From a virus, in the IMG/VR virus record IMGVR_UViG_3300044632_002025: a DNA stretch of 64,000 bases; one strand, written 5' to 3'. The notes under the pieces were generated by a model. It ran no database searches. It saw only the letters and a list, made by a program, of their open reading frames with translations, and was not told where the DNA came from. Shown one piece after another: positions 37,658-55,372 of the stretch. How positions within the stretch are numbered: position 1 is the stretch's first letter; every line of letters begins with the position of its first letter. A program made the translations under genes and the position numbers.

Positions 37658-38806
37658 CTAAACCCCCTGCTCTGCGGGGGGTTTTTGTTTTGGCTGTTCC
37701 CCCACTGGAATAGTCAAAGCATCTTCCACACTCCAGCCTTTTTTAAGCCTGTGTCTTAATGTGTGCGGTTTCATACCTAACTCTCTCGCCCAGCAAGAAA
37801 CAGTCTGAATCTTCCCATTAAATTCTACCATGTTTAGGTGGTCATTTACGGGGGTTTCAAAGGCTTTCTCTACTGACCAACCGTACTTGTTTAATCTAAC
37901 ACTGAGGGTTGATGATTGCAAACCTAATTCTTTAGCCCATTCCCCTAAACTTTGACTTCTACCCTGATATTCAATCTGGGGGATATAATCACCAGACGGG
38001 GTAGTTAATGCTTTATCCACGCTCCAACCCAAGTCTATTATGCGTGAACGAACACAACCTTCATCGAGTCCCATTCGTTCTGCCCAATGTCTTAGCGGCA
38101 AAATCTCCCCCCTGAAAGTTAGTAGACGATTGTTTCTTTTGTTAGCGGCTTGTTCTTCTAGCGGAATCCATTTGCAATTTTCAGGACAATAATCACCGTT
38201 AACATCAATTCTTTCAATAGAGTATCCTTCAGGACATTCACCCATATCTTCTAGGAAGTTTTCAAAAGAATTTAACCAACGGTCACACACTTTAATCCCT
38301 CTTTTCACATAACCCCCATTAGGGTCTTGATTAGAATTAGTGCATCTGGCTTTCATTGAACGCCATTTAATATATGTCGGGGACTCCCCAATTTTAGGAC
38401 TATGCCCATGCTTGGTTTTAGTTTCTATAACTCTTTCTAAGTTGTAGCAACCGCAGGAAGTAGTTTGACCCTTTCTCAAGTTACTACCTCTAACTGTAGT
38501 TTTATTTCCACAATCACAAACGCAATCCCACATAACCTGTCTGAAGTTATCTCTTTCCGGGTTCTCGCCCGTGACTGTTAATCTACCAAATTTCTGCCCT
38601 AACAAATCCTTTTTGCTAATTACTTCTTGTAGTTTGCACCCGCAGGAATTAGTGTGTCCACCTGTCAAACAGCTACTTACTGTAGTTTTGGTTCCGCCAC
38701 AGTCACAAACACAGTCCCATTGAATTTGACTATTTTTTCTAACTGGGTTTTCTCCCACTACCGTCAGTTTTCCAAATCTTTGTCCCAGTAAATCTCTCTT
38801 AGGCAT
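37658..38806 (-). CDS. Cys-rich repeat protein with three C-terminal HTH-like repeats
   Basis: Two N-terminal copies of LLGQ.FG.LTV.GENP....W.CVCDCG..TTV....L..G.T.SCGC. A central W..M..RC...RGI.VCDRW..F..FL.DMG. Three ~45-aa repeats of (F.G....L..WA.E.G.....L..R....GWSV..A...P). Confidence 0.55.
   Translation of the reverse strand: MPKRDLLGQRFGKLTVVGENPVRKNSQIQWDCVCDCGGTKTTVSSCLTGGHTNSCGCKLQEVISKKDLLGQKFGRLTVTGENPERDNFRQVMWDCVCDCGNKTTVRGSNLRKGQTTSCGCYNLERVIETKTKHGHSPKIGESPTYIKWRSMKARCTNSNQDPNGGYVKRGIKVCDRWLNSFENFLEDMGECPEGYSIERIDVNGDYCPENCKWIPLEEQAANKRNNRLLTFRGEILPLRHWAERMGLDEGCVRSRIIDLGWSVDKALTTPSGDYIPQIEYQGRSQSLGEWAKELGLQSSTLSVRLNKYGWSVEKAFETPVNDHLNMVEFNGKIQTVSCWARELGMKPHTLRHRLKKGWSVEDALTIPVGEQPKQKPPAEQGV
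37663..37691 (+). terminator. rho-independent terminator after the tail tube gene
   Basis: CCCCC-tgctctgc-GGGGG(G) followed by TTTTTGTTTT. Overlaps the 3' end of the convergent gene. Confidence 0.7.
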
Positions 38807-38832
38807 AAAAGCTCCTTTAACTCTATTTCTAC

Positions 38833-38861
38833 ATCATAAACCCTTACCCGTCTTTTGTCAA
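38833..38861 (-). promoter_or_regulatory. early-type promoter for 37658..38806
   Basis: Minus strand: TTGACA (38861-38856), 17 nt, TATGAT (38838-38833). SD AAAGGAG precedes ATG 38806. Confidence 0.65.
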
Positions 38862-38879
38862 TAACGCTCAAACTAAAAT
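38859..38879 (+). promoter_or_regulatory. late-type motif site L11
   Basis: CAATAACGCTCAAAC followed by TAAAAT. Back to back with the minus-strand promoter. Confidence 0.4.
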
Positions 38880-38905
38880 AGGACACTTTTATATTTTAAC
38901 TTGGC

Positions 38906-38977
38906 ATGAAAAAAAGTTCTGGCTGTAAGAAACCCAAAATGCCTAAGCCCAAACCCCTAAAACCTAAAAAGGCTTAG
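38906..38977 (+). CDS. candidate 23-aa lysine/proline-rich micro-protein
   Basis: ATG..TAG reads MKKSSGCKKPKMPKPKPLKPKKA. Late motif L11 is 27 nt upstream and a terminator follows immediately downstream. Too short for the ORF track. Confidence 0.3.
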   Translation: MKKSSGCKKPKMPKPKPLKPKKA

Positions 38978-38983
38978 TCTCCC

Positions 38984-39010
38984 CAAAAAAACCCCATTAA
39001 CTGGGGTTTT
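38984..39010. terminator. bidirectional terminator
   Basis: AAAAAAA-CCCCA-ttaac-TGGGG-TTTT, between the micro-ORF (+) and 39018..39281 (-). Confidence 0.65.
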
Positions 39011-39017
39011 GCAGTAT

Positions 39018-39281
39018 CTAGGCTTGGTCTCCCAATCTGCCAAATTTAATTGCTTTCCCTTTTGACTGGGGTTTACTGGTGTTTTCACTATACTTGGGGG
39101 TATAGGCTTTTGAGGCTCCTTTGTCTCTAAAAGTCCCGTCCTCGTTACGAAGGACTAACCATTCTTTAAACGTCCTCCAAACACTAAATTTCCCAAAGGC
39201 TTTTTGTTTATACGCCCCCCCTACAGTTTTTACTTTGTCTTGAACTGCTGACCCCTTTCTTTTATTATTTCGTTTCTTCAT
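39018..39281 (-). CDS. small basic protein (late)
   Basis: 87 aa, K/R-rich (MKKRNNKRKGS...). Late motif L12 lies upstream. Confidence 0.5.
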   Translation of the reverse strand: MKKRNNKRKGSAVQDKVKTVGGAYKQKAFGKFSVWRTFKEWLVLRNEDGTFRDKGASKAYTPKYSENTSKPQSKGKAIKFGRLGDQA

Positions 39282-39311
39282 TAAAAGTTTTAACCCAAGC
39301 TCTAATTTGGG

Positions 39312-39329
39312 CTTGGGCGTTATTGTCTA
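39312..39329 (-). promoter_or_regulatory. late-type motif site L12
   Basis: Minus strand: TAGACAATAACGCCCAAG, 31 nt upstream of ATG 39281. Confidence 0.5.
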
Positions 39330-39358
39330 AGTACATATTTGTTTAAAAACGCTCATAT

Positions 39359-39982
39359 TTGTTTATGAACACTGATAACTGGTTTATGCTCGTTCCTTCT
39401 AGAATAGCCTCCTCCAAATTAGGGCTTCACCCCCATACCCTTAGAAAATATTTTGATGACGGTTTGATTAAGGGGATTAAAAACCCCGCAGGTCAACGAT
39501 ATTACGATGTTGAATCCTATTTAGCCGACCCTCTTGACAAACCCTCAGTTATCTGTTATGCTAGGGTTAGTTCAAGAAAACAGTCTGCTGATTTGGCTAG
39601 ACAGGTCGATTTCTTGAAATCAGTTTACCCCGATTCGGAGATTATTACAGATGTCGGTTCTGGACTTAACTTCAAAAGAAAAGGTATTCAAACCCTATTG
39701 GACAGATTACTCTCAGGAGATTAGTTCACTCTTGCTATCTCCCACCGAGATAGACTCTGCCGATTCGGATTTGAATTGTTCCAATACCTTTTCCTCAAGA
39801 ACGGTGGAACAATCGTGGTTCTCAACAATACTCAAACAAGTCCCGAACAAGAACTTACCCCCTACTTACTATCAATCCTCCATATTTTCAGTTGCAGAGT
39901 CTACGGACTTAGAAAAAACAACAAAAATATCGAGGAAGATAAGACTTTACCCCGACAAAACTCAACAAAATCTACTGAATGA
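39359..39982 (+). pseudogene. tnpA: IS607-type serine recombinase TnpA interrupted by an in-frame TAG
   Basis: MerR-like HTH (LGLHPHTLRKYFDDGLIKG..AGQRYY) and the catalytic-Ser motif VICYARVSSRKQ. A TAG at 39722-39724 is followed, in the same frame, by FTLAISHRDRLCRFGFELFQYLF...SPEQELTPYLLSILHIFSCRVYGLR. Track ORFs 39359..39724 and 39776..39982 share the frame. Confidence 0.8.
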
Positions 39983-41081
39983 GCTAATCTCTCAATATCG
40001 GTTTGTTTACAATAAAACTGTAGATTTGCTGATAAACGGTAAAATTGGGGCTAATTGTGATTTAAAGACTAAGAAAGAAAGAAAAGGTTTGTCAAGCTAT
40101 GACATCCGTGACACATTCTTTCAATTTTGGTTGGAGAAACACACTTGGTTAACCAATTGCATAAACATAAATACAGTAAAGGAGGCTATCACCGAAGCTA
40201 TCAATGCCCAACAAGTAGGGTTTGCCCAATTAAAAGCGGGGTTAGTTGAAAGGTTTGAGTTAAAATTCAAATCTAGAAAAAAGCCCCGACAAACTATCAA
40301 CCTAAAAAAGGAAATACTCTCAGCTAAGGGAGTGTTAGCCCCCCGAAACCTAAAACTAGAAACCCCCCTAAAATCAGACACAAGGGGTAGTTTTGATGGT
40401 CTAACCCTCACAACTACTGGGGGATTGTTCTACCTAATTTATACTGAAGATATTGCTAATAATCCAGAAGTCGAAAACCAAGACCTAAAGATTGTAGCAT
40501 TAGACCCTGGTGTTAGAACTTTCCAAACTATTTTCTCGTCTAATGGGGTTTTCGGTAAATTTGGTCAAGAAGCCATTAAAAGATTGGCTAAACTATGCCA
40601 TAAAGCAGACAAAATCCAATCTAAAATAGCTAAAACCAAAAACCAAAGTCGGATTAATTATCTAAGAATGTGGCAACAACGAACCACATTAAAGATAAGA
40701 AATCTGAGGAAAGAACTCCACCACAAAATTAGTAGATTTCTAGTAGATAACTTTGATGTAATCCTGCTACCCTGCTTTAACACCGGTGAAATGGTTAAAA
40801 AGAAGGACAGAAAAATCAATAAATCTACTACCCGTTCAATGTTAAATTTTGGACATTATGAGTTTAAGGAATTATTAAAGTTCAAAGCCAATAAATTTGG
40901 TAAAAAACTAATAATAGTTTCTGAGGCTTATACCTCCAAAACCGTATCATGGACAGGGGAAATAATAGCTAATCTAGGTGGGAGGAAAGTAATCAAATCT
41001 CAGAGTAACGAAAGTTTAGACAGAGATTTAAATGGAGCCAGAGGAATCCTAATAAAATTCTTAACTGAGCTACCCCAATAG
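39651..41081 (+). CDS. tnpB: TnpB (OrfB) RuvC-like nuclease of the IS607 element; start uncertain
   Basis: Contains KIRLYPDKTQQNLLNELISQYRFVYN (typical TnpB N-terminus), LDPGVRT (RuvC-I Asp), SEAYTSKT (Glu) and DRDLNGARGI (Asp). The conserved core begins near 39925. The first ATG, at 39651, would overlap tnpA by about 330 nt. Confidence 0.75.
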   Translation: MSVLDLTSKEKVFKPYWTDYSQEISSLLLSPTEIDSADSDLNCSNTFSSRTVEQSWFSTILKQVPNKNLPPTYYQSSIFSVAESTDLEKTTKISRKIRLYPDKTQQNLLNELISQYRFVYNKTVDLLINGKIGANCDLKTKKERKGLSSYDIRDTFFQFWLEKHTWLTNCININTVKEAITEAINAQQVGFAQLKAGLVERFELKFKSRKKPRQTINLKKEILSAKGVLAPRNLKLETPLKSDTRGSFDGLTLTTTGGLFYLIYTEDIANNPEVENQDLKIVALDPGVRTFQTIFSSNGVFGKFGQEAIKRLAKLCHKADKIQSKIAKTKNQSRINYLRMWQQRTTLKIRNLRKELHHKISRFLVDNFDVILLPCFNTGEMVKKKDRKINKSTTRSMLNFGHYEFKELLKFKANKFGKKLIIVSEAYTSKTVSWTGEIIANLGGRKVIKSQSNESLDRDLNGARGILIKFLTELPQ

Positions 41082-41153
41082 GGAGTTACTACCCTTACAT
41101 ATTAACGAATGTTAATGTTTTAGTAACCGTGTTAATGGGCTAGACCCCAGATA

Positions 41154-41318
41154 CTAGAATAATATCTGAAATAGCCATATAATAGAAGCTACACAAATTA
41201 ATGCCAAAACCCCATAGACTATATAATTAAGCAAAATTAGTCTGGAAATCACATTCAAGTTTTCCCAAACCAGCCAAGATACTACAAGGGTTAGTGCGAT
41301 GAAACCTAAAGCCAACAT
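41154..41318 (-). CDS. candidate 54-aa two-TM membrane protein
   Basis: ATG 41318 follows GAGGTTATCTAT. Reads MLALGFIALTLVVSWLVWENLNVISRLILLNYIVYGVLALICVASIIWLFQILF. Falls below the ORF-track size cutoff. Confidence 0.4.
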   Translation of the reverse strand: MLALGFIALTLVVSWLVWENLNVISRLILLNYIVYGVLALICVASIIWLFQILF

Positions 41319-41412
41319 ATAGATAACCTCAAAGTCTAAATTGTTTAGGGGTTATTGCCCCTGTTTATAGGGTATACGGTTTATCAGAGTTTGTCAAGGG
41401 TTTTGCAAAACT

Positions 41413-43293
41413 TTATTCCATCCCCGAAACCATAGATTTAACTTCCTCTAGGGGGATTTCCAACTTCTGCGATAATTCAGCCATTAAGGTATCTAAAATC
41501 CCTTGTAGGTTATCTCCTCCCTCAACATACCCTACACCGTTTAGAACCTCAACTACAGTAGCATCAGTAGCCATAGCTAAAGCACTTGCCACTTCCTGGA
41601 TTTGCATATCAAGGTCAACTGCTACCGTGGCTCCTGTTTCACCTTCAGCTTCAGCTTCTGGTTCTGCTTCTGCCTGAATCTCTTGCATATTTCGCATTTG
41701 TTCAGATATGTTTTCCCATTCTGCTTCAGGGTCAAATCCTAACAATTCTTGTGCTGTCTTAACTGATACAATCTGATTCAGGACTAAAGAACTTAATTCC
41801 TCCATAGATAGTTCAAAATGTTCTTCTGGTTTGAAAGATTCCTTAGTTTCATTTTGAATAGTATTTTGTTCATCAATAGAAGCATTAGGAGTTAAAGCTC
41901 GTTGTAAATCTTCAGTTACCAATCTCATCGCAGTGTCAGCGATTGGTGTTTCTAGTTTCTCCAATCGGGCAAGGCGGTCTACCTTAGCATCAACAGAATC
42001 TAGAACGAACTCATTCAACCCTGAAACTGAAATCATTTCGGCTTTATCAGGGGGTAAACCGTGGGCTAAGGCTACCAACTTATAACAGTTCTCTAGGAAT
42101 CTTAACAATTCCTCACCATAGGCGGTCAAAGCTTGTTCTTGGCTGATAAAGTCCATACTTTTGGCCACACCCGACTCTTGCATTGGTCTATCAGTACCAG
42201 CAGAAATACCGTTACTAAATACTAAATCTTTGATTCTAGATTCAATACCTTGTAAATAGCCTGTAATAGTGGAAATCGCTGAACCAGTAGTCTCATTAAA
42301 GCTAAATCCTGACCCAATCAAAACTCTATGATTACCAGTTTGTTGTTTGGCTTCTTCAATGTCCACCATTTTATCAACAGTTTCCGCCATCGGAGTAAAT
42401 AGTCTTTGAATCTGTCCAGCCAAATTAGCAGTATAGGAAAGATTATTGTGAACTCGGATGTGTTCTAGAACCAAATAAATGGCTTCTTTGACTACCCATA
42501 GATTCTCTGGGGCTTGAATCTTAACTACCGGAATACTATCTCTACCATGTTCAATAGTTGATTTCTTACTGACCATGTATTCTTTAGTTTCTAAGTCTAA
42601 ACCCATGACAGGACTAGGTGTACCATCTTTTGCTAATTCTACTGGACACGAATAAATATTTATTTCTTTATCATCAATAAAAGTCCAGTTTAGGTATACT
42701 CTAGGAATACCCACTGGGTCATATTCAGTCATTAACTCTCTAATTTTTATCCATTGTAACCGTCCATCCTTTTCGTCATAGTGGACTACTTTACAGGGGT
42801 CATATAGGGCAATATAAGGCATTAAACCTTGTTCATCTTGTTCCTTACGGTTTTTAGGTAGGTTCTCAGTATATTCAATATCAATTACTGCATAAACTCG
42901 TTCATACTTCAAAAGTCTGTAAAATACTTCTTTAATAAAGTTCTTTTCTTTTTGGTTATTTCCATTTACGGATTCCCTAAATTTAGCCCAGAACTTCCCC
43001 TCGTCTCCCTGAGTTCCCAAACCATTAATAACATGATTTGAAGCAGTCATCCGATTCATTAATTGGGCTAAACATTGCCCTAAAATAGGTGTGTAGGTAA
43101 AAATCTTTTTGCGGTACTTATAGACTTCTGCATCCTCATCTGGCTTTTTGCAGAGGTATTTCTCCAGATTTTCCCTAATCTGATTACCCCCCGCTAACAA
43201 ATCGTCAGCAGTCTCATAGATGTATTTTTTAGCCAGTACATCGGGGTGATAAGTTTCTAACTGATTAAACGGGACTTTCTCAGGGTATCGCAT
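41413..43293 (-). CDS. portal protein (inferred)
   Basis: 626 aa, immediately downstream of the large terminase in the same operon. It has an acidic C-terminal region. The call rests on position and size. Confidence 0.6.
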   Translation of the reverse strand: MRYPEKVPFNQLETYHPDVLAKKYIYETADDLLAGGNQIRENLEKYLCKKPDEDAEVYKYRKKIFTYTPILGQCLAQLMNRMTASNHVINGLGTQGDEGKFWAKFRESVNGNNQKEKNFIKEVFYRLLKYERVYAVIDIEYTENLPKNRKEQDEQGLMPYIALYDPCKVVHYDEKDGRLQWIKIRELMTEYDPVGIPRVYLNWTFIDDKEINIYSCPVELAKDGTPSPVMGLDLETKEYMVSKKSTIEHGRDSIPVVKIQAPENLWVVKEAIYLVLEHIRVHNNLSYTANLAGQIQRLFTPMAETVDKMVDIEEAKQQTGNHRVLIGSGFSFNETTGSAISTITGYLQGIESRIKDLVFSNGISAGTDRPMQESGVAKSMDFISQEQALTAYGEELLRFLENCYKLVALAHGLPPDKAEMISVSGLNEFVLDSVDAKVDRLARLEKLETPIADTAMRLVTEDLQRALTPNASIDEQNTIQNETKESFKPEEHFELSMEELSSLVLNQIVSVKTAQELLGFDPEAEWENISEQMRNMQEIQAEAEPEAEAEGETGATVAVDLDMQIQEVASALAMATDATVVEVLNGVGYVEGGDNLQGILDTLMAELSQKLEIPLEEVKSMVSGME

Positions 43294-43349
43294 AGGGTGG
43301 GCGGGGTTAGGTCTTCTACTTAGGTCATGAGCGTCCCTACCCTCGCCCC

Positions 43350-45110
43350 TTAATAGCCAGAATTATAATTTCCGTAGAGACTATCATCTTGGGGGACACT
43401 GGGTATTAGGGTATTTGCACCCATACTATCGATGATATTCTCAATATTCCGATGCTCCAAAGTAGCCAAAACGTAACGTAAAGCATCGCAAAAATGGTCT
43501 CTTTGCCCTTCAGCCACTTTCTCGGTAACATTCCCTTCTTTAGACTCTCGGTGATATGCAGTCATGTCCTCAAAAACCCTTTTACAGGATTTGGCAATAA
43601 AAAGTTTATCTTGGTGTAATAAAGTGTTAACCACCCCATTACCTTCTGATACCCTATTATAGCCCTCCATTAACTTGGGAACACCCGCTTTTCTCATGGT
43701 TAAAATTCTTCCCGGTTGTGACGGGTCAGCATATCCACGGTTGACACCATGCGTTCTGGCTAACTCAATGGCTTTCTCATTGTGGACTCGTTGTTCAATG
43801 GCCGCTTTAGGGTTGGGATTTTCCCAACAATCAATCACAAAATAAGCGGCTCCCCGTCTTCCCACCACTACTAGGGCAGGATTCACATCTCCCCAGTCCA
43901 CTCCGATATATACTTGGTCAAATTTTGTCGGTAAATCGTCATCATCCAGTAAGTGTCTCTTATCTAAATCTGAGAATATCTGACCATCAAAAGATTCCCA
44001 AGATGCTAAAAATTCTTGTCTAAAGATTTTTTCGGGTAATGACTCTTTGGTTCTTTGGATTTCATCAAGGGGAATAAAGGGATTATCATAAACTGTTTTT
44101 AAAAAACTAGCCCAATTAGGAACTTCACCACCTTGTAGGTAAAGACTATGGAAAAATGTACCTGCCCCCTTGGGCGTACCAATAATTAGAGATGTACTAT
44201 TTTTAGTATCAACTAAAGCAGGGCGAATCACTTCCGTCCATACAATAGGTTTTATATCTTGCATCTCATCTAATCCAGCAAAATATATCTTCAACCCCCG
44301 CATATTGTCGCCGTTATCTTCATTGGCTCCTCTGAGGATGATGTCTGGTTTATTTCCTTTAAAAACGATTCTGCATTCAGACTTAAAAATTCTTTTAACT
44401 GCTGGGTGTCCATCTAGAATATTTACAAGTGGTTCCCAGTGGATTTGTTTAGCCTGTTTTAAGCTAGGCATAACGAGCAAAACGACGGGGGGTGAAGCTT
44501 TATCATAGTTGCCGTTGTAATTAATAGCCCTTTCGATTAAAGTAGTTAATAGTAGCCTGGAATTATGGGTAGGGATGTTACTTTTACTACATAGGAAAAT
44601 CCCTCCTTCTACTTGAATACACTTAGTTCGATGTCTTCCAACAGGGATTACATCGGCTATAAAAAAGCTTTCCCACGGATGCAAAATTTTACGAGGAACA
44701 GATAAATTAAGTTTTTTACTTCCCTTTTGAATGTTTTGATGGTAATAGAATATTTCCTCAGTAGTCCATGTGTTAGACTCTAACTTACGGTTTAGCTCCA
44801 AAACCCACTCATGGTTTTTCCCTGCTCTGATAACCTGTCCATTTTCAAAGACAATATCGTAGCAATCATCTTCAAATACCTCGGTAGCCGCTAAAACTTT
44901 TACAGGTAAACCCTGTTCATTATATACAGTGTCCCCAGTGAAAATTTTCTTAATCGGTTTATAACCATTTTTGGTCAAAATAGGGGTGTTTTCTTCTAAA
45001 TTTTTCCCAAATCTCCTCGATGAAACCAAAACCTTGAATCTGGCAGGGTCTCCGAATACTTCTTGTTGTCCCGGGTGTAAATATAATTTTAATTTTCCAG
45101 GTTTTGCCAT
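43350..45110 (-). CDS. terL: terminase large subunit, intein-containing
   Basis: Split Walker A (SSRRFGK...S), Walker B YFAGLDEMQD, IGTPKG, and nuclease-domain motifs VYIGVDWGDVNP and HFCDALRYV. ATG 45110 is preferred over the track's TTG 45125 because late motif L13 sits at 45141-45152. Confidence 0.9.
   Translation of the reverse strand: MAKPGKLKLYLHPGQQEVFGDPARFKVLVSSRRFGKNLEENTPILTKNGYKPIKKIFTGDTVYNEQGLPVKVLAATEVFEDDCYDIVFENGQVIRAGKNHEWVLELNRKLESNTWTTEEIFYYHQNIQKGSKKLNLSVPRKILHPWESFFIADVIPVGRHRTKCIQVEGGIFLCSKSNIPTHNSRLLLTTLIERAINYNGNYDKASPPVVLLVMPSLKQAKQIHWEPLVNILDGHPAVKRIFKSECRIVFKGNKPDIILRGANEDNGDNMRGLKIYFAGLDEMQDIKPIVWTEVIRPALVDTKNSTSLIIGTPKGAGTFFHSLYLQGGEVPNWASFLKTVYDNPFIPLDEIQRTKESLPEKIFRQEFLASWESFDGQIFSDLDKRHLLDDDDLPTKFDQVYIGVDWGDVNPALVVVGRRGAAYFVIDCWENPNPKAAIEQRVHNEKAIELARTHGVNRGYADPSQPGRILTMRKAGVPKLMEGYNRVSEGNGVVNTLLHQDKLFIAKSCKRVFEDMTAYHRESKEGNVTEKVAEGQRDHFCDALRYVLATLEHRNIENIIDSMGANTLIPSVPQDDSLYGNYNSGY
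44562..45002 (-). other. 147-codon mini-intein (class-3-like) inside the TerL P-loop
   Basis: The insert runs NLEENTPILTKNGYKPIKKIF...AGKNHEW...RTKCIQVEGGIFLCSKSNIPTHN and is followed by Ser. Removing it gives RRFGK-S. Codon boundaries were checked against the DNA: AAT at 45002-45000, AAA (Lys) at 45005-45003. Confidence 0.7.
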
Positions 45111-45140
45111 TATCTCTACGCTCAATCGCTTCTGTCTTAG

Positions 45141-45152
45141 ATTGGGCGATGG
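45141..45152 (-). promoter_or_regulatory. late-type motif site L13
   Basis: Minus strand: CCATCGCCCAAT, then C-TAAGAC. Lies 31 nt upstream of ATG 45110. Confidence 0.45.
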
Positions 45153-45218
45153 GGGCTTACCCTAGCGATAAGATTTACTTATACTTCATTGATAGCTTTT
45201 TCTTACGGATAAAATATG

Positions 45219-45247
45219 TTGACAAACCAATAAGCGGTATGTTATGT
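45219..45247 (+). promoter_or_regulatory. early-type promoter for the MazG-like gene
   Basis: TTGACA (45219-45224), 17 nt, TTATGT. Confidence 0.55.
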
Positions 45248-45281
45248 TGGGAACATACAGACCTTAAAGACCTAAAAACCT

Positions 45282-45863
45282 ATGCGATTTGAATTAACAC
45301 CAGAAAATTTGGCTTACCTAGACTCATATATGGAGTTTACGGACTCTACAGCAGTTTACCCCGATGAAGTAGCCCTGACTTATTCCATTCTGGGTTTGGT
45401 TAATGAGTTAGCTGAAACCATCGAGTGCTATAATGACCAAATAGCTCAAGATGACACTAACCTTAAGGCAATCGCCCTAGAACTGGGGGACGTAGTTTAC
45501 TACTTGTGTCGAATAGTTAAGCACCTGGGACTCCCCCCACTGTCCACCTTATTTTCACAATACTCTTTGGGCAAACCAGATTCGGTTTCTTCATTGAGAT
45601 TGAGTAAAGTGTTTGAAAGAGCGGTAATTTTTGCTGGCTCCCTCGCTAGTATTCACAAAAAACAACTACGGGGTGATGAAGCATACCAATCCCCAGCTAT
45701 CTTACAGTCTAAGATGCGGGTAATGCCCCTGTTCGTCATTCTTGATGAGTTATCCTGCCTGTTCGGGTTTAACAACCTTCTCAGTGTAATGAACATGAAC
45801 ATGGCAAAGCTATCTGCCCGAAAATTGGCAGGTACTATTAAAGGGGATGGAGATTATCGCTAA
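45282..45863 (+). CDS. mazG: MazG-like nucleoside triphosphate pyrophosphohydrolase
   Basis: Helical NTP-PPase pattern: LGLVNELAETIE ... ALELGDVVYYLCRI. Confidence 0.55.
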   Translation: MRFELTPENLAYLDSYMEFTDSTAVYPDEVALTYSILGLVNELAETIECYNDQIAQDDTNLKAIALELGDVVYYLCRIVKHLGLPPLSTLFSQYSLGKPDSVSSLRLSKVFERAVIFAGSLASIHKKQLRGDEAYQSPAILQSKMRVMPLFVILDELSCLFGFNNLLSVMNMNMAKLSARKLAGTIKGDGDYR

Positions 45864-45886
45864 TTAAACTGACTCAACTTTAATAA

Positions 45887-45914
45887 CCCTAGCCTAGCTA
45901 GGGATTTTTTTTTT
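45887..45914 (+). terminator. rho-independent terminator
   Basis: CCCTAGC-cta-GCTAGGG followed by ATTTTTTTTTT. Confidence 0.75.
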
Positions 45915-45922
45915 GTTGGGGG

Positions 45923-45952
45923 TTGACAAACCCATAAAGGCTAAGTTATACT
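45923..45952 (+). promoter_or_regulatory. early-type promoter
   Basis: TTGACA, 18 nt, TATACT. Thirty of 31 nt are identical to the promoter at 46812. Confidence 0.65.
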
Positions 45953-45986
45953 GTTAAAGTAATCAGAAAACACTAAAGAGGTAAAT

Positions 45987-46826
45987 ATGGAAATCGTAAA
46001 ACCCACAACTGTTAAAGTCCCCGAATTAGATATGGAATTGCAATTTTTTGTCAGTGCAGACGGGAAAACCTGTGGCATGAGTCAGTCTGCGTTAGCCCGA
46101 TTATGTGGAGTTCAACGTGGGAGTATGTTCTCAGAGGGTCGGGTTATCGCAAATCTTTCTCAAGAAACCCCCGAATCAAAAACAGTCCCAGAATGCTTGA
46201 AACCCTTCCAAGGTAAGGTTTTCTCCCAGACGCTGAAAGGGGATTGCGACAGTGTTAATCTTGCGAACATTGTCAACAGTAAAGCCGCCGCCGCTATCAT
46301 TTCCTATTACGGTTTTGAATCAAAAGCCGCTAATCCAGTGGCTCGAAAAAGTCTTTTAGCTTTTGCTTCAATCGGAATCGACACATGGATTAAATCTGTC
46401 ACTGGTTATGTCTCTGACTCAGACCGTCTGGCTAACATTGAAATGGTCATGACGGGTTTAGTTGGTGAAGTACGGGAAATGCGAGAAGAAATCCGTGACT
46501 TCAAAAAAGTAGTCACGGTCTATCCTAAAATCGATGGGTGGAAAAATGGACTAAAAGGTTTGCCCTTTTATCTGCCGGAAGATTTCTCCCTAAAAGATTA
46601 CCTAGAAGCAAAGGCTTTAGACTTCACTAACACAGAGTTCCGCAAAATCCGCCTTCAAGTTGCTCAAGCATGGGAAACCTTAATGGGTGAAAAACCCCCA
46701 AAACGCCATGTCTACGGGTTAAAAAACGGCAAGAAAAAACGAATCAGCACTGAGTATTTCTACCGACGGGAAGACATCCCGATGATTGAGGAAATTCTTT
46801 TGGGTTTAGACTTGACAAACCCATAA
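45987..46826 (+). CDS. hypothetical DNA-binding-like protein
   Basis: 279 aa. MSQSALARLCGVQRGSMF is HTH-like. Confidence 0.5.
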   Translation: MEIVKPTTVKVPELDMELQFFVSADGKTCGMSQSALARLCGVQRGSMFSEGRVIANLSQETPESKTVPECLKPFQGKVFSQTLKGDCDSVNLANIVNSKAAAAIISYYGFESKAANPVARKSLLAFASIGIDTWIKSVTGYVSDSDRLANIEMVMTGLVGEVREMREEIRDFKKVVTVYPKIDGWKNGLKGLPFYLPEDFSLKDYLEAKALDFTNTEFRKIRLQVAQAWETLMGEKPPKRHVYGLKNGKKKRISTEYFYRREDIPMIEEILLGLDLTNP

Positions 46827-46841
46827 CGGCTAAGTTATAAT
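46812..46841 (+). promoter_or_regulatory. dedicated promoter of the tRNA gene
   Basis: TTGACA (46812-46817), 18 nt, TATAAT (46836-46841). Overlaps the 3' end of the preceding gene. Confidence 0.65.
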
Positions 46842-46866
46842 AAAGAGGTCTGGAGCAAAAGACCTT

Positions 46867-46938
46867 CTGGGTTTAGCTTATCGGATAAGCACCGTCCTCA
46901 TAAGACGGCATAGGTGGGTTCGACTCCCACAACCCAGA
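46867..46938 (+). tRNA. tRNA with anticodon CAT (Met, or Ile2 if lysidine-modified); no encoded CCA
   Basis: Folded by hand. Acceptor CTGGGTT/AACCCAG. D arm GCTT-ATCGGAT-AAGC. Anticodon arm CCGTC-CTCATAA-GACGG. Variable loop CATAG. T arm GTGGG-TTCGACT-CCCAC. Discriminator A. 72 nt. Confidence 0.85.
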
Positions 46939-46963
46939 TTTGTTCCTTGTTTGGTTTATTTAA

Positions 46964-46988
46964 CCCCCTAGAGTATAGGGGGTTTTTT
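46964..46988. terminator. rho-independent terminator after the tRNA
   Basis: CCCCCTA-gagta-TAGGGGG followed by TTTTTT. Confidence 0.75.
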
Positions 46989-46996
46989 CTTGCCTG

Positions 46997-47839
46997 TTAA
47001 TAGTTACTGAACCATATATCCTTAAATTCTTCTAAAGCCTTTTCTAATTGTTCCCACACTCCTAAGACCGACTCTCCCCCTTGTTCCCACAGTTCTAAGA
47101 CAGACTCTCCTCCTTGTTCTGGAATTACTCTAGACTTAAAGGGGGGGGTTTTCCGTCCGTTCCAGTTAACCCCTAGATTTCCATGTTCTGACTCTAAATG
47201 GATTCCTACAGCATTAGCGATTAATTTGCGCTTCTGTCCTCCCCATCGCATAGCAAATAGCATATCGGCTCTAGCGGCATTTTGATGGACTGTAGGGTAG
47301 GAATTTTCACTATTGGGAGCATACCAAGCTTGAAAGAATCCAATGGGGACATAATACCCATCCTTAAAGACACGGGGCATAATCGGGAAACGGTCTAATC
47401 TGAGCCAGACTTCCTGTTCATAAAATACGTTAGGGTCGCTAACATAATCTGTCCATTTATCAAAACCTACTGCACTAACTCGGTCAATACCGTAAATACA
47501 ATCGGTTTCTATAAGCTCTTTTCGGATATGATTCATTGAGCGAGGGGGTAGAACAATATCAGAGTCAAAGTGGACTAGCCAACCGCTTTTAGATAAAATA
47601 TTAGACTTCAAAAATTCATCGATTGCCTGGGATTTACCGAAAGTTTGACCCTCAGCAAAAAAAGCTTCAGTAGCATAACACTGAACATGGTGAAAGGAAC
47701 ATACCTCTTGGGTCTTCAGGTCTTGGGGTGTAGTGAGGACTACCAGATTGTCGAACTGCGGACGATTGAAAAGTAAAGACCAAGACAAAAAATCCGAATA
47801 ACCAACACAAGTGGTAAAAGCTTCAACGGGAGAGTACAT
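46997..47839 (-). CDS. putative glycosyltransferase-like protein (DxD)
   Basis: 280 aa. WLVHFDSDIVLPP is DxD-like. The C-terminus has a tandem 11-aa repeat, EQGGESVLELW/EQGGESVLGVW. A G8 tract lies at 47141-47148. The family call is weak. Confidence 0.35.
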   Translation of the reverse strand: MYSPVEAFTTCVGYSDFLSWSLLFNRPQFDNLVVLTTPQDLKTQEVCSFHHVQCYATEAFFAEGQTFGKSQAIDEFLKSNILSKSGWLVHFDSDIVLPPRSMNHIRKELIETDCIYGIDRVSAVGFDKWTDYVSDPNVFYEQEVWLRLDRFPIMPRVFKDGYYVPIGFFQAWYAPNSENSYPTVHQNAARADMLFAMRWGGQKRKLIANAVGIHLESEHGNLGVNWNGRKTPPFKSRVIPEQGGESVLELWEQGGESVLGVWEQLEKALEEFKDIWFSNY

Positions 47840-47871
47840 ATTTTCTCAGTGGGCAGGGGGATTCAAGAATA

Positions 47872-47885
47872 TTTTGGGCGCATAC
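47872..47885 (-). promoter_or_regulatory. late-type motif site L14
   Basis: Minus strand: GTATGCGCCCAAAA, 33 nt upstream of ATG 47839. Confidence 0.45.
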
Positions 47886-47920
47886 TTTTAGGCACAAAAA
47901 AACCACCGGTTAAGGTGGTT
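47885..47920 (-). terminator. terminator hairpin with weak embedded promoter (cassette 1)
   Basis: Minus strand: AACCACC-TTAACC-GGTGGTT followed by TTTTTTT. The loop TTAACC, 17 nt and TAAAAG form a weak promoter. Confidence 0.6.
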
Positions 47921-47943
47921 AAATTTACCGACATCCAAAATCA

Positions 47944-48270
47944 TTACCACACATCAAGCGGCAATCCAGGGTAACGTATTTGAATCCCTAGAGCGTCGCA
48001 AGTGAACTGCAAACTATCAGATAATGGATGACTTTCTCCAAACAAATAAATGACTTTATGTGTCAGTGGGAAGTATATGTGCAAAATACTGATTAGTCTA
48101 ATGGCTTTTTCGGCATTGTAATCTTCTGAGACTATTACCAATTCCTCATCTGTTAAAAAGTCAATAACACCCTCTGGAAGTTTGATAGTTCTTGGGGGAG
48201 TTATATACTCTAGTGCCAAAAAGTCGCAACAATCCTGCTTACTTTTAAACTGTGGGGGTTTGATATTCAT
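47944..48270 (-). CDS. hypothetical protein
   Basis: ORF track, 108 aa. Confidence 0.5.
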   Translation of the reverse strand: MNIKPPQFKSKQDCCDFLALEYITPPRTIKLPEGVIDFLTDEELVIVSEDYNAEKAIRLISILHIYFPLTHKVIYLFGESHPLSDSLQFTCDALGIQIRYPGLPLDVW

Positions 48271-48297
48271 GGCTACATGGGTTAAATGTACTTTCTT

Positions 48298-48333
48298 ATT
48301 ATAGCAACAAAAAAACCACCCGTCAAGGTGGTT
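48298..48333 (-). promoter_or_regulatory. fused terminator-promoter cassette 2
   Basis: Minus strand: AACCACC-TTGACG-GGTGGTT-TTTTTTT-GTTGC-TATAAT. The hairpin loop is the -35 (48326-48321). The stem 3' arm plus the U-run make up the 17-nt spacer. The -10 is at 48303-48298. Confidence 0.65.
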
Positions 48334-48352
48334 AATGTTTTATTTTGTATCG

Positions 48353-49084
48353 TTAACCGTTTATAGTGCTGAAAAATCCTTCTATTGCCTCTCTCACTTC
48401 TGGGTGATTTGCCGGATAAACTGCTATCTCTCGCATTGCCCCGTTGACTAACCGTTTCTCTTGTTGACTTAGTTGACGACAACTCTTTTTAACGTATTTT
48501 CCAAGTTGAGACCGATTATCATGGGAAGGGTTAAATCCCATTTCTAGTGCAATCTCAACAACTCCTTGCAAGGAATCCCCAGTTAAAGTAGCCTGACTTG
48601 GCATTAAATCGGAAATAGCATGGTCAATTAGAAATTGGGCTAATCGGGGGTTATTTCGAGAAATCAATCCCTCAATTTCCACAACTGCCTTAGCTGTTTC
48701 AACAGCAACCTGACGAGATGTTAATTTAGGCTGTTCTACATGGTGCAGACTAACTGTGCCAGTTGTGACTAGCGTTTTGATTTGCTGTAGCATCCAGATT
48801 TTGAACTTCACCGAACACCAACCAGCAAACTCTAAAGCGACTTCTTCAATTGCCCATGTTCCAGTAGTTGCAGGTAAGCCCCCAACGTTAGACACCATTA
48901 CGGGAATCCCCGCAATGCCCTCAAACTCAGTCAGGAACTCGGTTGTAGCATTTAGTCGATTCCAATCATTAATCCGTTTCCCACTAGCCTTAGCCATATC
49001 GGTTAGACAAACCCAGACCCGACCTTCACGATTTTCAAAGCGAATGTTGTTGGAGTTGAAATCAAAAACAGATAAATTAGACAT
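48353..49084 (-). CDS. KilA-N domain protein
   Basis: The N-terminus, FDFNSNNIRFENREGRVWVCLTDMAKASGKRINDWNRLNATTEFL, fits the KilA-N pattern. Confidence 0.6.
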   Translation of the reverse strand: MSNLSVFDFNSNNIRFENREGRVWVCLTDMAKASGKRINDWNRLNATTEFLTEFEGIAGIPVMVSNVGGLPATTGTWAIEEVALEFAGWCSVKFKIWMLQQIKTLVTTGTVSLHHVEQPKLTSRQVAVETAKAVVEIEGLISRNNPRLAQFLIDHAISDLMPSQATLTGDSLQGVVEIALEMGFNPSHDNRSQLGKYVKKSCRQLSQQEKRLVNGAMREIAVYPANHPEVREAIEGFFSTING

Positions 49085-49113
49085 AGTTTAGTCCAGAAAT
49101 AGGTATCCCGTTT

Positions 49114-49149
49114 ATTATAGCAACAAAAAAACCACCCGTCAAGGTGGTT
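49114..49149 (-). promoter_or_regulatory. fused terminator-promoter cassette 3
   Basis: Same architecture as cassette 2: loop TTGACG (49142-49137), 17 nt, TATAAT (49119-49114). Sits between phoH and the KilA-N gene. Confidence 0.65.
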
Positions 49150-49177
49150 TAATATTTAATTCAGAAGTAACTTTAGA

Positions 49178-49813
49178 TTAACCTAGTGCTTCTAAAATTT
49201 TGGCCAGAATTGGATGGCGAACCGACGTACCCTTCGGAAAGAAAGTTACCCCAACACCTTCCACATCATTCAACCGGTTTGCGGCAATTGGTAAATAGGC
49301 TTCAGTTTTCAAACTACATTGGGTGGGGTCTCCGATAATACAGAGCTTTGAACCGTGTGCAATTCTAGTTACCACGGCTTTAAACAGACGTTCAGTAGCG
49401 TCCTCAGCCTCATCAAAAATAATAAAGGTATTAGACAAACTAGCTCCTTTAATATTACCGATGTGGCTAATTTCTATAGTAGAACGGAGCTTCTGGAAAT
49501 CTTTAGGGTGGGCAATTTCAGAAAGATTAGTCCATAGGGGAGTTCCCAATGAATCTACTTTTTCCCCATAATCACCTGGCATAGCCCCAATATCAACCTC
49601 ATCCCTGTCTCTTACAAACGGTCTTACATATAAAACACTATTAATGGGGTCATCTGGATTATTAAGAGCTAAAAGGGCGGAATACATCGCAATCAGAGTC
49701 TTACCAGTACCAGCCTCACCAACACCAATAGAAATGGTATTTGTCCGTAAAGACCGTAGAAACTGTTCTTGATAGCGGTTCTTGGGTTTCAATCCGTGGG
49801 CAATATTGACCAT
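49178..49813 (-). CDS. phoH: PhoH-like ATPase
   Basis: Walker A GEAGTGKT, Walker B IIFDEAED, and downstream CIIGDPTQC, as in PhoH family proteins. Confidence 0.8.
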   Translation of the reverse strand: MVNIAHGLKPKNRYQEQFLRSLRTNTISIGVGEAGTGKTLIAMYSALLALNNPDDPINSVLYVRPFVRDRDEVDIGAMPGDYGEKVDSLGTPLWTNLSEIAHPKDFQKLRSTIEISHIGNIKGASLSNTFIIFDEAEDATERLFKAVVTRIAHGSKLCIIGDPTQCSLKTEAYLPIAANRLNDVEGVGVTFFPKGTSVRHPILAKILEALG

Positions 49814-49836
49814 GTTGTTTTTATGGTTGTTAGTGA

Positions 49837-50409
49837 CTAAATGTTTTCAACGGAATCGGGGGCTAATTCAGCACTAGCCTCAATCTGATTTGGGGCGGGT
49901 TCTAGGAATTGAGGGTAAACAGCGACATCAACATAGTCTTCTTCACTGACTACTTCAGTAGCACCCTCTACCATAAACATGATGGCAGTAAGTTGTTTAT
50001 GTGCTTCCAAAGAGGCAGAAAGATTTTTAGAAACTAATTCGATAACATCACCCCGACCAGTAACTTTTTGGTCACTGTAGCCAGACTTACCCATATCCAT
50101 TACCTCGGCCAAGAACTGAACCCGGGAATATAAAGTAGCATACTTTAACTCCTTTAATTCCATGCCCATTTTGACGGCTTCAGCCCCGCCCTTCCGGTAT
50201 TTAGCAACCAAATTAGGTTCAGCCTCAATAACTCTGACTACTAAATCCTCATTAATATCCAAAGGAGTTATCTTCCGATTTACCCTTCGACAGATTTCCG
50301 AGAATGAGTATTCAGGGTAGCAACCCTTATAGAAACAAATAGCCTCCTTTACTAAATCTGGTAGACTTCCCTCCGTATTTACCACAATATCTTTTTTAGA
50401 CCTGGACAT
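49837..50409 (-). CDS. hypothetical protein
   Basis: ORF track, 190 aa. Abuts the upstream gene (ATG overlaps its stop). Confidence 0.5.
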   Translation of the reverse strand: MSRSKKDIVVNTEGSLPDLVKEAICFYKGCYPEYSFSEICRRVNRKITPLDINEDLVVRVIEAEPNLVAKYRKGGAEAVKMGMELKELKYATLYSRVQFLAEVMDMGKSGYSDQKVTGRGDVIELVSKNLSASLEAHKQLTAIMFMVEGATEVVSEEDYVDVAVYPQFLEPAPNQIEASAELAPDSVENI

Positions 50410-55278: not shown

Positions 55279-55309
55279 AAACTAAAGTAAAACCACTTTA
55301 AATCAGCCC

Positions 55310-55338
55310 TTGACAATTCTGGGGGGGTCTGTTACACT
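55310..55338 (+). promoter_or_regulatory. early-type promoter with a G7 tract in the spacer
   Basis: TTGACA-ATTCTGGGGGGGTCTGT-TACACT. Confidence 0.6.
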
Positions 55339-55372
55339 GGGTTCAACAAGGACAAGTAATCTGCGGCCAGTG

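What the first reader, a model, noticed from the sequence alone, without database searches (positions are those of the whole stretch)
44562..45002. Class-3-like mini-intein splitting the Walker A P-loop of the large terminase
The minus-strand TerL ORF reads ...VLVSSRRFGK | NLEENTPILTKNGYKPIKKIF...AGKNHEWVL...RTKCIQVEGGIFLCSKSNIPTHN | SRLLLTTLIERA.... Deleting the 147 codons restores RRFGK-S, a normal terminase P-loop, and the rest of TerL stays colinear.

The insert has Hint-domain blocks:
- Block A: xLxxxTPIxTxxGYKPI.
- Block B: His in GKNHEW.
- Block F: KCIQVEGG..IFLC.
- Block G: THN, followed by Ser.

Position 1 is Asn, not Cys or Ser. The insert also has Trp two residues after the block B His, Cys at the block F position that is usually Asp, and Thr before the terminal His-Asn. 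As I recall, that is the W-C-T signature of class 3 inteins, which use the block F Cys as nucleophile. No endonuclease domain is present.
Basis: partly seen in the sequence, partly recalled or inferred. Interest (0 to 1): 0.75.

Follow-up and report, generated by a model that had tools for sequence, protein, structure and literature searches.

The report
Class 3 mini-intein in phage terminase
The packaging-motor gene of this cyanophage-like genome carries a 147-residue self-splicing protein element (a class 3 mini-intein) in its ATP-binding loop; it is real and textbook-like, and is a new example of an already described kind.

Summary
Window 44562..45002 (-) encodes 147 aa (NLEEN...PTHN) inserted between Lys and Ser of the TerL Walker A motif (SSRRFGK|SRLLLT). 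Twelve intein-free homologues are colinear across the junction with no gap. Deleting the insert gives a 439-aa TerL that passes the Pfam Terminase_6N threshold.

The insert is a HINT domain of the class 3 type:
- The best solved-structure matches by sequence are the mycobacterial DnaB class 3 mini-inteins (6RIX, E = 8e-8).
- An AlphaFold model (pLDDT 89) superposes best on the same structures (TM 0.76-0.89).
- An HMM built from 20 other class 3 mini-inteins scores it at 134 bits.
- Block B His64 and Trp66, block F Cys128, Thr145-His146-Asn147 and Ser+1 all fall in columns that are 99-100% conserved in 143 relatives.

Position 1 is Asn. This is rare (1 of 143 relatives; Ala in 102) but non-nucleophilic, as the class requires. 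There is no endonuclease domain; related TerLs carry a full-size (340 aa) version at the same site.

Class 3 inteins in phage terminase P-loops were described in 2009-2010, so this is a new member of a known kind. Splicing itself was not tested.

The parts
43350..45110 (-). TerL precursor gene (586 aa from the ATG at 45110; an in-frame TTG lies at 45125). T4-type large terminase with ATPase and RNaseH-like nuclease domains.
   Evidence: Terminase_6N and Terminase_6C; 68% identity to Microcystis phage Mic1 TerL; the identical 586-aa product is called on at least 9 metagenome contigs.
45003..45110 (-). N-extein, 36 aa (MAKPGK...VLVSSRRFGK). It ends with the Walker A Gly-Lys; residue -1 is Lys.
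   Evidence: Residue -1 is Lys in 119 of 143 related class 3 inteins.
44562..45002 (-). Class 3 mini-intein, 147 aa, Asn1 to Asn147.
44964..45002 (-). Block A (NLEENTPILTKNG). Asn1 (45000..45002) is non-nucleophilic.
   Evidence: Aligned to A-L-x-x-D-T-P-x-x-T-x-x-G of relatives. Position 1 is Ala in 102 of 143 relatives and Asn in 1 of 143.
44799..44840 (-). Block B (GQVIRAGKNHEWVL). His64 (44811..44813) is B:10; Trp66 (44805..44807) is B:12, the W of the WCT triplet.
   Evidence: (His 143/143, Trp 143/143).
44862..44864 (-). Cys47, the equivalent of Cys48 of Msm DnaBi1 (needed for splicing there, and the disulfide partner of the catalytic Cys).
   Evidence: Alignment (DDCYDIVF against GRPCYVVEF). 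Cys occupies this column in 94 of 143 relatives. PMC6195587.
44667..44729 (-). Low-confidence loop (residues 92-112) at the place where full-size relatives carry a LAGLIDADG-type endonuclease domain. Probably a deletion scar.
   Evidence: pLDDT is 58-61 over residues 91-110. The alignment with the 340-aa inteins of P0004/5/7/8 and with P0195 places the roughly 190-aa gap here.
44583..44630 (-). Block F (RTKCIQVEGGIFLCSK). Cys128 (44619..44621) is F:4, the predicted first nucleophile.
   Evidence: (Cys 141/143).
44562..44582 (-). Block G (SNIPTHN): Thr145 (G:5), His146 (G:6), Asn147 (G:7).
   Evidence: (Thr 142/143, His 136/143, Asn 143/143).
43350..44561 (-). C-extein (403 aa plus stop). It starts with Ser+1 (44559..44561), which is the Walker A Ser/Thr and the second nucleophile.
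   Evidence: Residue +1 is Ser or Thr in 130 of 143 relatives.

Best explanation
The 441-nt insert encodes a class 3 mini-intein sitting between Lys and Ser of the TerL Walker A motif. While it is present, the P-loop is physically split and the terminase ATPase cannot work.

The inferred pathway follows the mechanism established for class 3 inteins:
1. After translation the HINT domain folds.
2. Cys128 (block F:4), activated by His64 with help from Trp66, attacks the Lys(-1)-Asn1 peptide bond. This forms a thioester branched intermediate that carries the 36-aa N-extein.
3. Ser+1 takes over the N-extein by transesterification, giving the block G branch.
4. Asn147 cyclises, assisted by His146, and releases the intein.
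5. An O-to-N acyl shift yields a 439-aa TerL with the intact motif SSRRFGKS.

The element has lost its homing endonuclease. Related TerLs carry a 340-aa version at the same site. The mini-intein is therefore now inherited vertically with the phage rather than homing.

Shown here: the insertion, the fold, the class-specific residues and the family membership by sequence. Inferred: that it actually splices, and the order of the chemical steps.
For: Sequence and boundaries.

Clean insertion against 12 intein-free TerLs.

The in-silico spliced product is 439 aa, as in intein-free homologues (435-455 aa). Its Terminase_6N score rises from 20.2 bits (below the cut-off of 22; profile match from position 29) to 27.8 bits (profile positions 3-209).

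The best PDB sequence hits are class 3 mini-inteins with the same GK|..|S insertion context:
- MchDnaB1 (6RIX/6RIY), E = 8e-8.
- MsmDnaBi1 (6BS8), E = 2e-6.
His-x-Trp, Cys in vrCvevd and PTHN all align.

The AF2 model (pLDDT 89.4) has the same structures as its top Foldseek hits (E = 2e-10, TMt 0.82-0.89).

Of the 143 best relatives from an exhaustive search:
- His 143, Trp 143, Cys F:4 141, Thr 142, terminal Asn 143.
- Residue +1 is Ser or Thr in 130.
- Residue -1 is Lys in 119.
- Residue 1 lacks a nucleophile in 139.

Mini class 3 inteins of 139-145 aa are proven to splice (PMC5222942).

The identical TerL protein occurs on at least 9 contigs, including assemblies of two separate sequencing runs. 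Against a 99%-identical variant, the intein shows 5 synonymous and 1 non-synonymous difference. This is consistent with a maintained, functional gene.
Against: No splicing assay was done.

Asn at position 1 is rare (1 of 143 relatives) and, as far as I found, has not been tested biochemically.

Block B:7 is Gly. This occurs in 26 of 143 relatives, and the position is dispensable in the MP-Be DnaB intein according to PMC2807308.

Block F is two residues shorter than in most relatives (QVEGG against QVDSPSG), though several relatives share the shorter form.

Pfam's own Hint and intein models barely see the insert (Hint_2, E = 0.067).

The selection evidence rests on only six nucleotide differences.
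Confidence: 0.88

Rival explanations
1. A decayed, non-splicing intein relic. The TerL gene would be inactive (a defective phage or prophage remnant), or the insert would be tolerated as a permanent domain.
For: Mini-inteins are endonuclease-less and can decay. One WDT-type 'DnaB' intein turned out to be a pseudogene (PMC3196547, listed). Asn1 is unusual. Nothing was tested experimentally.
Against: All catalytic positions are intact. The reading frame is open through the whole 586-aa precursor. An insert between Lys and Ser of a Walker A loop cannot be tolerated by an ATPase, as Kelley 2016 (PMC5050341) argues for TerL. The same sequence recurs on at least 9 contigs in independent samples. The surrounding genome looks like a complete phage. 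Differences from a sister variant are mostly synonymous.
Confidence: 0.07
2. The intein is active but splices by a non-class-3 route. For example, Ser+1 could attack the N-terminal junction directly (class 2, KlbA-like), and Cys128 would not be the first nucleophile.
For: Position 1 lacks a nucleophile, which is also true of class 2 inteins (PMC2807308).
Against: Class 2 inteins lack the WCT triplet, and the characterised Mja KlbA example uses Cys+1. This intein has the full triplet and Ser+1. Its nearest solved relatives by both sequence and fold are biochemically proven class 3 inteins. In those inteins Ser+1 cannot start the reaction (PMC5222942).
Confidence: 0.03
3. An ordinary colinear TerL segment or a non-Hint insertion domain.
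For: None found.
Against: Twelve close homologues lack the segment entirely. The fold is HINT: all 46 Foldseek hits with E <= 0.001 are inteins, BIL or hedgehog domains.
Confidence: 0.01

Closest known systems
Mycobacterial DnaB-1 class 3 mini-inteins (Msm DnaBi1, PDB 6BS8; Mch DnaB1, PDB 6RIX/6RIY; Mle DnaB)
   Same: Size is similar (139-145 aa against 147 aa) and there is no endonuclease. The insertion site is the same type, between Lys and Ser of a P-loop (SVGK|A...HN|S). His B:10, Trp B:12, Cys F:4 and Thr-His-Asn align residue for residue. The extra Cys between blocks A and B (Cys48 there, Cys47 here) is present. These are the best hits by both sequence and fold.
   Different: The host protein is a phage terminase, not a bacterial replicative helicase. 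Residue 1 is Asn, not Ala. Identity is only about 22-35%. The linker between blocks B and F differs. Block F is two residues shorter.
Class 3 inteins of phage terminase large subunits (Tori et al. 2010, JBC; actinobacteriophage TerL inteins of Kelley et al. 2016 and the 2025 PhagesDB survey)
   Same: A class 3 (WCT) intein in a phage TerL ATPase domain. Tori 2010 already lists phage terminase large subunits among the hosts and notes that most class 3 inteins sit in the P-loop. The insertion between the P-loop Lys and Thr/Ser is called the 'classic' site.
   Different: Those described are in actinobacteriophages and are mostly full-size with LAGLIDADG endonucleases. The class 3 size range in the 2025 survey is 225-359 aa. 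This one is a 147-aa mini-intein in a T4-type (Terminase_6) TerL of a Mic1-like cyanophage lineage, and it begins with Asn.
Full-size P-loop inteins in related metagenomic TerLs (P0004, P0005, P0007, P0008) and the Asn1 intein of P0195
   Same: P0004/5/7/8 have the same insertion point in orthologous TerLs (50-53% identical exteins) and the same WCT and THN|S features, with 36-41% identity over the splicing domain. P0195 shares the start NL..(N/S)TPILTKNG and the end KCIQVEGGI(F/Y)L...PTHN|S.
   Different: They are 339-341 aa and carry an endonuclease-sized middle domain (LAGLIDADG_3 by Pfam in P0195). P0004/5/7/8 start with Ala. P0195 sits in a T7-type terminase.
Microcystis phage Mic1 TerL (MN013189), the closest cultured relative
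   Same: Mic1 TerL is the best match in the phage collection (68.5% identity, 72% of the query covered). It is also intein-rich; the two inteins were described by Yang et al. 2020.
   Different: The Mic1 inteins are class 1 (Cys1) and sit at two other sites: G|TPKG in the ATPase domain and DH.|CDALRY in the nuclease domain. The Mic1 P-loop is uninterrupted (RRYGK|SRLML).

Membership tests
Intein (HINT superfamily splicing domain) | Hedgehog/intein fold | tested here: met
   AF2 model with pLDDT 89.4 and pTM 0.84. Foldseek against PDB gives 46 hits at E <= 1e-3, all inteins, BIL or hedgehog domains; the top TMt is 0.89.
Intein (HINT superfamily splicing domain) | In-frame insertion in a conserved site of a host protein, absent from homologues, whose removal restores a colinear host protein | tested here: met
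   Twelve intein-free TerLs read GK|SRL with no gap. The spliced product is 439 aa and gains a full Terminase_6N match.
Intein (HINT superfamily splicing domain) | C-terminal His-Asn followed by a Ser/Thr/Cys nucleophile at +1 | tested here: met
   His146-Asn147|Ser+1.
Intein (HINT superfamily splicing domain) | Autocatalytic protein splicing (excision plus extein ligation) | not testable with these tools
   Needs expression followed by SDS-PAGE or MS. The only indirect support is that the identical gene recurs on at least 9 contigs and that differences from a sister variant are mostly synonymous.
Class 3 inteins (Tori et al. 2010) | No Cys/Ser/Thr nucleophile at intein position 1 | tested here: met
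   Asn1. The boundary is fixed by the intein-free homologues and by the constant 5-residue spacing to the block A Thr-Pro in relatives.
Class 3 inteins (Tori et al. 2010) | WCT triplet: Trp at B:12, Cys at F:4, Thr at G:5 | tested here: met
   Trp66, Cys128 and Thr145 align to the corresponding residues of 6RIX and 6BS8. These columns are conserved in 143, 141 and 142 of 143 relatives and are invariant or nearly so in alignment A1.
Class 3 inteins (Tori et al. 2010) | Ser or Thr (rarely Cys) at +1 | tested here: met
   Ser+1. In relatives +1 is Ser in 97, Thr in 33 and Cys in 12.
Class 3 inteins (Tori et al. 2010) | Block F Cys is the obligate first nucleophile and forms a block F branched intermediate | not testable with these tools
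   Needs C128A/S and N147A mutants with trapping of the intermediate. Shown for the homologous Msm, Mle and MP-Be DnaB inteins (PMC2807308, PMC5222942).
Mini-intein (no homing endonuclease) | Splicing domain only, about 130-170 aa, with no LAGLIDADG/HNH domain between blocks B and F | tested here: met
   The insert is 147 aa. Only 56 residues lie between Trp66 and Arg123. Pfam finds no endonuclease domain. The model shows the HINT core, one helix and a loop. A gap of about 190 aa appears against full-size relatives.
Class 2 (KlbA-type) inteins, considered and rejected | No residue 1 nucleophile AND no WCT triplet; the +1 residue (Cys+1 in the characterised Mja KlbA) attacks the N-terminal junction directly | tested here: not met
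   The WCT triplet is present and +1 is Ser. Definition from PMC2807308.

The most novel reading that the evidence does not exclude
The intein may act as a conditional, redox-gated switch on DNA packaging. It keeps the Cys47/Cys128 pair that forms a reversible splicing-blocking disulfide under oxidative stress in Msm DnaBi1, and it has a third Cys (Cys138) in block F. In a phage of an oxygenic phototroph, light-driven ROS could hold TerL as an inactive precursor and time packaging to the state of the host. The rare Asn1 could tune the reactivity of the N-terminal junction. Nothing here tests this. The Cys47 column is simply common in the family (94 of 143), so it may only reflect a structural or catalytic need.
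Probability: 0.12. Interest if true: 0.55.

Novelty: new member of a known kind. Interest (0 to 1): 0.25.

Why it matters
The main value is for annotation. The TerL of this phage lineage is a 586-aa precursor whose mature form is 439 aa. Standard Pfam intein models miss the insert, so pipelines will call it an oddly long terminase with a weak N-terminal domain match.

It adds a third, mechanistically different intein site (P-loop, class 3) to the two class 1 sites reported in the related Microcystis phage Mic1. Within one TerL family, the P-loop site occurs empty, filled with a full-size intein and filled with a mini-intein. The C-motif site is present or absent between phages that are 99% identical. 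This makes a tidy natural series for studying intein gain, endonuclease loss and fixation in cyanophages.

On the practical side, it is a compact 147-aa class 3 intein with Ser+1 and an unusual Asn1. It could be tried as a protein-engineering tool, or used to ask how much residue 1 matters in class 3 chemistry.

None of this changes the current understanding of inteins.

Tried and rejected
- Pfam scan of the insert alone gave only a sub-threshold Hint_2 hit (E = 0.067, 14 bits against a cut-off of 28.4). Taken alone this would have been inconclusive, and it was superseded by the PDB, HMM and fold evidence.
- The word-indexed homologue search with the intein alone returned only two short fragments of the same phage. 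The exhaustive phmmer search was needed.
- Megablast of window 38000-50000 against the phage collection found no match, so the phage itself is not in INPHARED.
- I looked for the supplementary tables of Tori 2010 to see whether Asn1 had been catalogued, but they are not held. I estimated the residue 1 spectrum from 143 representative relatives instead.
- I searched the rest of the window for further class 3 inteins with an HMM on all six frames and found none.
- I considered that the boundary might be shifted, so that a nucleophile would sit at position 1. The intein-free homologues fix the junction at GK|S, and there is no Cys/Ser/Thr at positions 1-5.
- The model coordinates are not exposed to scripts, so Cys128-His64-Thr145 distances could not be measured.
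- GC content of the intein (35.8%) against the C-extein (40.3%) differs only modestly and is not informative about recent transfer.
Full report
**1. Observation**

The minus-strand ORF at 43350..45125 is 591 aa from a TTG start. From the ATG at 45110, which gene callers use on identical metagenome contigs, it is 586 aa. AGKNHEWVL ... RTKCIQVEGGIFLCSKSNIPTHN | SRLLLTTLIERA.... Window 44562..45002 (-) is precisely the 147 codons from Asn1 to Asn147.

Pfam recognises the flanks as a T4-type large terminase (Terminase_6N and Terminase_6C). In the precursor, however, the N-terminal domain match starts only at profile position 29 and falls below the gathering score (20.2 against 22 bits).

**2. Is it an insertion?**

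A search with the whole protein found 174 relatives. Twelve intein-free ones of about 410-455 aa, plus the Mic1-type P0003, align across the junction as ...RR(F/W/Y/T/L)GK|SRL(L/M)LT... with zero residues in between.

Removing the 147 aa gives a 439-aa protein. This protein matches Terminase_6N over profile positions 3-209 at 27.8 bits, above threshold. SRRFGKS has the form of the T4 gp17 Walker A motif SRQLGKT (from my own knowledge). The insert therefore sits between the invariant Lys and the Ser/Thr of the P-loop. Kelley et al. 2016 call this the 'classic' P-loop intein site (PMC5050341).

**3. What is the insert?**

- *Sequence against solved structures.* The three best phmmer hits are the class 3 mini-inteins of mycobacterial DnaB: 6RIX and 6RIY (M. 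chimaera, E = 8e-8 and 3e-7) and 6BS8 (M. smegmatis, E = 2e-6). The N-terminal 60-70 residues align, and the C-terminal tkCiqveg..PTHN aligns to vrCvevdn..PTHN.
- *Exhaustive sequence search.* phmmer of the 147 aa against 1.84 billion representative proteins gave 2803 hits at E <= 1e-3 and 156 at E <= 1e-10.
- *Catalytic positions in relatives.* I mapped the query's key positions onto the best 143 relatives that had both halves:

| Position | Count among 143 relatives |
|---|---|
| Block B His | 143 |
| Trp two residues after block B His | 143 |
| Block F Cys | 141 |
| Thr before His-Asn | 142 |
| Penultimate His | 136 |
| Terminal Asn | 143 |
| +1 residue | Ser 97, Thr 33, Cys 12 |
| -1 residue | Lys 119 (P-loop context) |
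| Position 1 | Ala 102, Pro 8, Asp 8, Ser 4, Glu 4, Met 4, Leu 3, Gly 3, Gln 2, Arg 2, Lys 1, His 1, Asn 1 |

- *Size.* Twenty-six of the 143 are mini-inteins of 133-165 aa.
- *Independent HMM.* An HMM built from 20 of those mini-inteins, without the query, scores the window ORF at 134 bits over model positions 2-146.
- *Fold.* An AlphaFold2 model made with that alignment has mean pLDDT 89.4 and pTM 0.84. It shows the all-beta HINT core, one helix (residues 81-91) and a low-confidence loop (about residues 92-112).
- *Fold search.* Foldseek against the PDB ranks the class 3 inteins 6RIX, 6RIY and 6BS8 first (E = 2e-10 to 7e-9, TM 0.73-0.89). Next come gp41-1, Prp8, NpuDnaB and other inteins, then BIL and hedgehog domains.

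**4. Class**

Tori et al. 2010 (PMC2807308) define class 3 by three features: a non-nucleophilic residue 1, the non-contiguous Trp(B:12)-Cys(F:4)-Thr(G:5) triplet, and Ser or Thr at +1. Tori and Perler 2017 (PMC5222942) give His65/Trp67/Cys118/Asn139 for the Msm DnaB-1 intein.

In the window intein the homologous residues are His64, Trp66, Cys128, Thr145, His146, Asn147 and Ser+1. Residue 1 is Asn. All sequence-level criteria are met.

Class 2 is excluded because the WCT triplet is present and +1 is Ser.

Asn1 is unusual but not unique. One representative relative, P0195, is a T7-type terminase with a 339-aa LAGLIDADG-containing intein. Its intein begins NLSNSTPILTKNGW and ends GKCIQVEGGIYLAGKTLLPTHN|S, which is very like the window's termini.

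**5. History of the element**

Four orthologous metagenomic TerLs (P0004, P0005, P0007, P0008) have exteins 50-53% identical to the window's. They carry a 340-341-aa intein at exactly the same GK|S site. These inteins begin with Ala, have the same WCT and THN|S features, and carry an endonuclease-sized middle domain. Their splicing domains are 36-41% identical to the window's. The roughly 190-aa gap falls in the low-confidence loop of the model. The most economical reading is that the mini-intein descends from a full-size homing intein that lost its endonuclease. This is the usual view of mini-inteins (PMC5222942).

The window's intein is thus no longer mobile by itself. Its GC content (35.8%) is only slightly below that of the C-extein (40.3%).

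**6. Is it functional?**

This is inferred, not shown. The arguments in favour are:
- All catalytic residues are intact.
- Related class 3 mini-inteins of 139-145 aa do splice (PMC5222942).
- A Walker A loop split by 147 residues cannot bind ATP, and TerL is indispensable for a tailed phage.
- The surrounding window is a coherent phage genome: portal, tail proteins, PhoH, KilA-N, muramidase, a 5'-3' exonuclease and a D5-like primase-helicase.
- The identical 586-aa protein is found on at least 9 contigs. Two of them come from separate sequencing runs and are 100% identical to the window over 7.8 kb.
- Compared with a 99%-identical sister phage (P0001/L004), the intein has 5 synonymous and 1 non-synonymous difference, and the exteins have 17 and 1.

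The numbers are small, so the selection evidence is supportive only.

**7. Mechanism proposed** (established for the class, inferred for this member)

Cys128 attacks the Lys(-1)-Asn1 bond to form the block F thioester branch. Ser+1 then takes the N-extein, forming the block G ester branch. Asn147 cyclises and releases the intein. An O-to-N shift gives mature TerL with the motif SSRRFGKS.

**8. Comparison with what is known, and novelty**

Tori et al. [quoted passage not shown] Class 3 TerL inteins are abundant in actinobacteriophages. Class 3 mini-inteins have solved structures and biochemistry. My own survey shows hundreds of relatives, including other mini-inteins in T4-type TerL P-loops, such as P0155 (RRFGK|ALDENT...PTHN|S, 146 aa).

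The finding is therefore a new member of a known kind. The modest new points are:
- The lineage is Mic1-like cyanophages. The published Mic1 TerL has two class 1 inteins at other sites and an intact P-loop.
- It is a mini form, whereas the 2025 actinophage survey reports class 3 sizes of 225-359 aa.
- Residue 1 is the rare Asn.

**9. Speculative extension**

Cys47 aligns with Cys48 of Msm DnaBi1. That residue is required for splicing and forms a reversible disulfide with the catalytic Cys under H2O2 (PMC6195587). Kelley et al. 2018 call it non-conserved, yet it is Cys in 94 of 143 relatives here.

A redox-gated packaging switch in a phage of an oxygenic phototroph is conceivable but untested. 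I give it a probability of about 0.12.

**10. Verdict**

Splicing remains to be shown experimentally. Interest is low to moderate (0.25).

Noticed in passing
window 44177..44178 (-), between Gly311 and Thr312 of the TerL precursor (LIIG|TPKG): This is an empty site for a second intein. A 99%-identical TerL from another metagenome (P0001, locus L004, ENA ERZ27271802) carries an 873-nt class 1 intein (CVNPNT...ISHN|T) exactly here, in addition to the same P-loop mini-intein. Mic1 and several other relatives also have this site filled. The population is therefore polymorphic for the second intein.
   Followed up: partly
window 43473..43499 (-), DHFCDALRY in the TerL nuclease domain: This is a third intein site in the TerL family. 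Mic1-type TerL (P0003, 952 aa) has a class 1 mini-intein between DHL and CDALRY. The site is empty in the window.
   Followed up: partly
window 44545..44613 (-), about gene nt 498-564, around the C-terminal splice junction: Eight of the 24 nucleotide differences between the window and L004 in TerL cluster in 67 nt spanning the last 17 intein codons and the first 5 C-extein codons. All eight are synonymous. This could be a small recombination or gene-conversion tract at the junction.
   Followed up: no
window 39651..41081 (+): A TnpB/IS605 OrfB-type ORF (Pfam HTH_OrfB_IS605, OrfB_IS605, Cas12f1-like TNB domain) lies immediately beside the portal gene (41413..43293 -). It is a mobile-element nuclease inside the phage structural and packaging region. 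The same gene is present on the identical Logan contigs.
   Followed up: no
window 44862..44864 (-), intein Cys47: This is the equivalent of Msm DnaBi1 Cys48, which is essential for splicing and is the redox partner of the catalytic Cys. Kelley 2018 describes it as 'non-conserved', yet it is Cys in 94 of 143 representative class 3 relatives. The residue may be a more general feature of this class 3 subfamily than was reported.
   Followed up: partly
window 16346..24184 (+): A very large ORF (2612 aa) precedes a run of same-strand structural-looking genes, one of which (29506..31359) matches Phage-tail_3. The large ORF itself was not analysed.
   Followed up: no
window 48353..49813 (-), 51391..52296 (+) and 54436..57355 (+): The phage context genes are KilA-N (48353..49084), PhoH-like ATPase (49178..49813), a 5'-3' exonuclease (51391..52296, just below the Pfam cut-off), an N-acetylmuramidase with a PG-binding domain (54436..55278) and a DUF5906 D5-like primase/helicase (55310..57355). 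The 12-kb region 38000..50000 has no nucleotide-level match in the phage collection. The nearest TerL is Microcystis phage Mic1 at 68% identity.
   Followed up: partly
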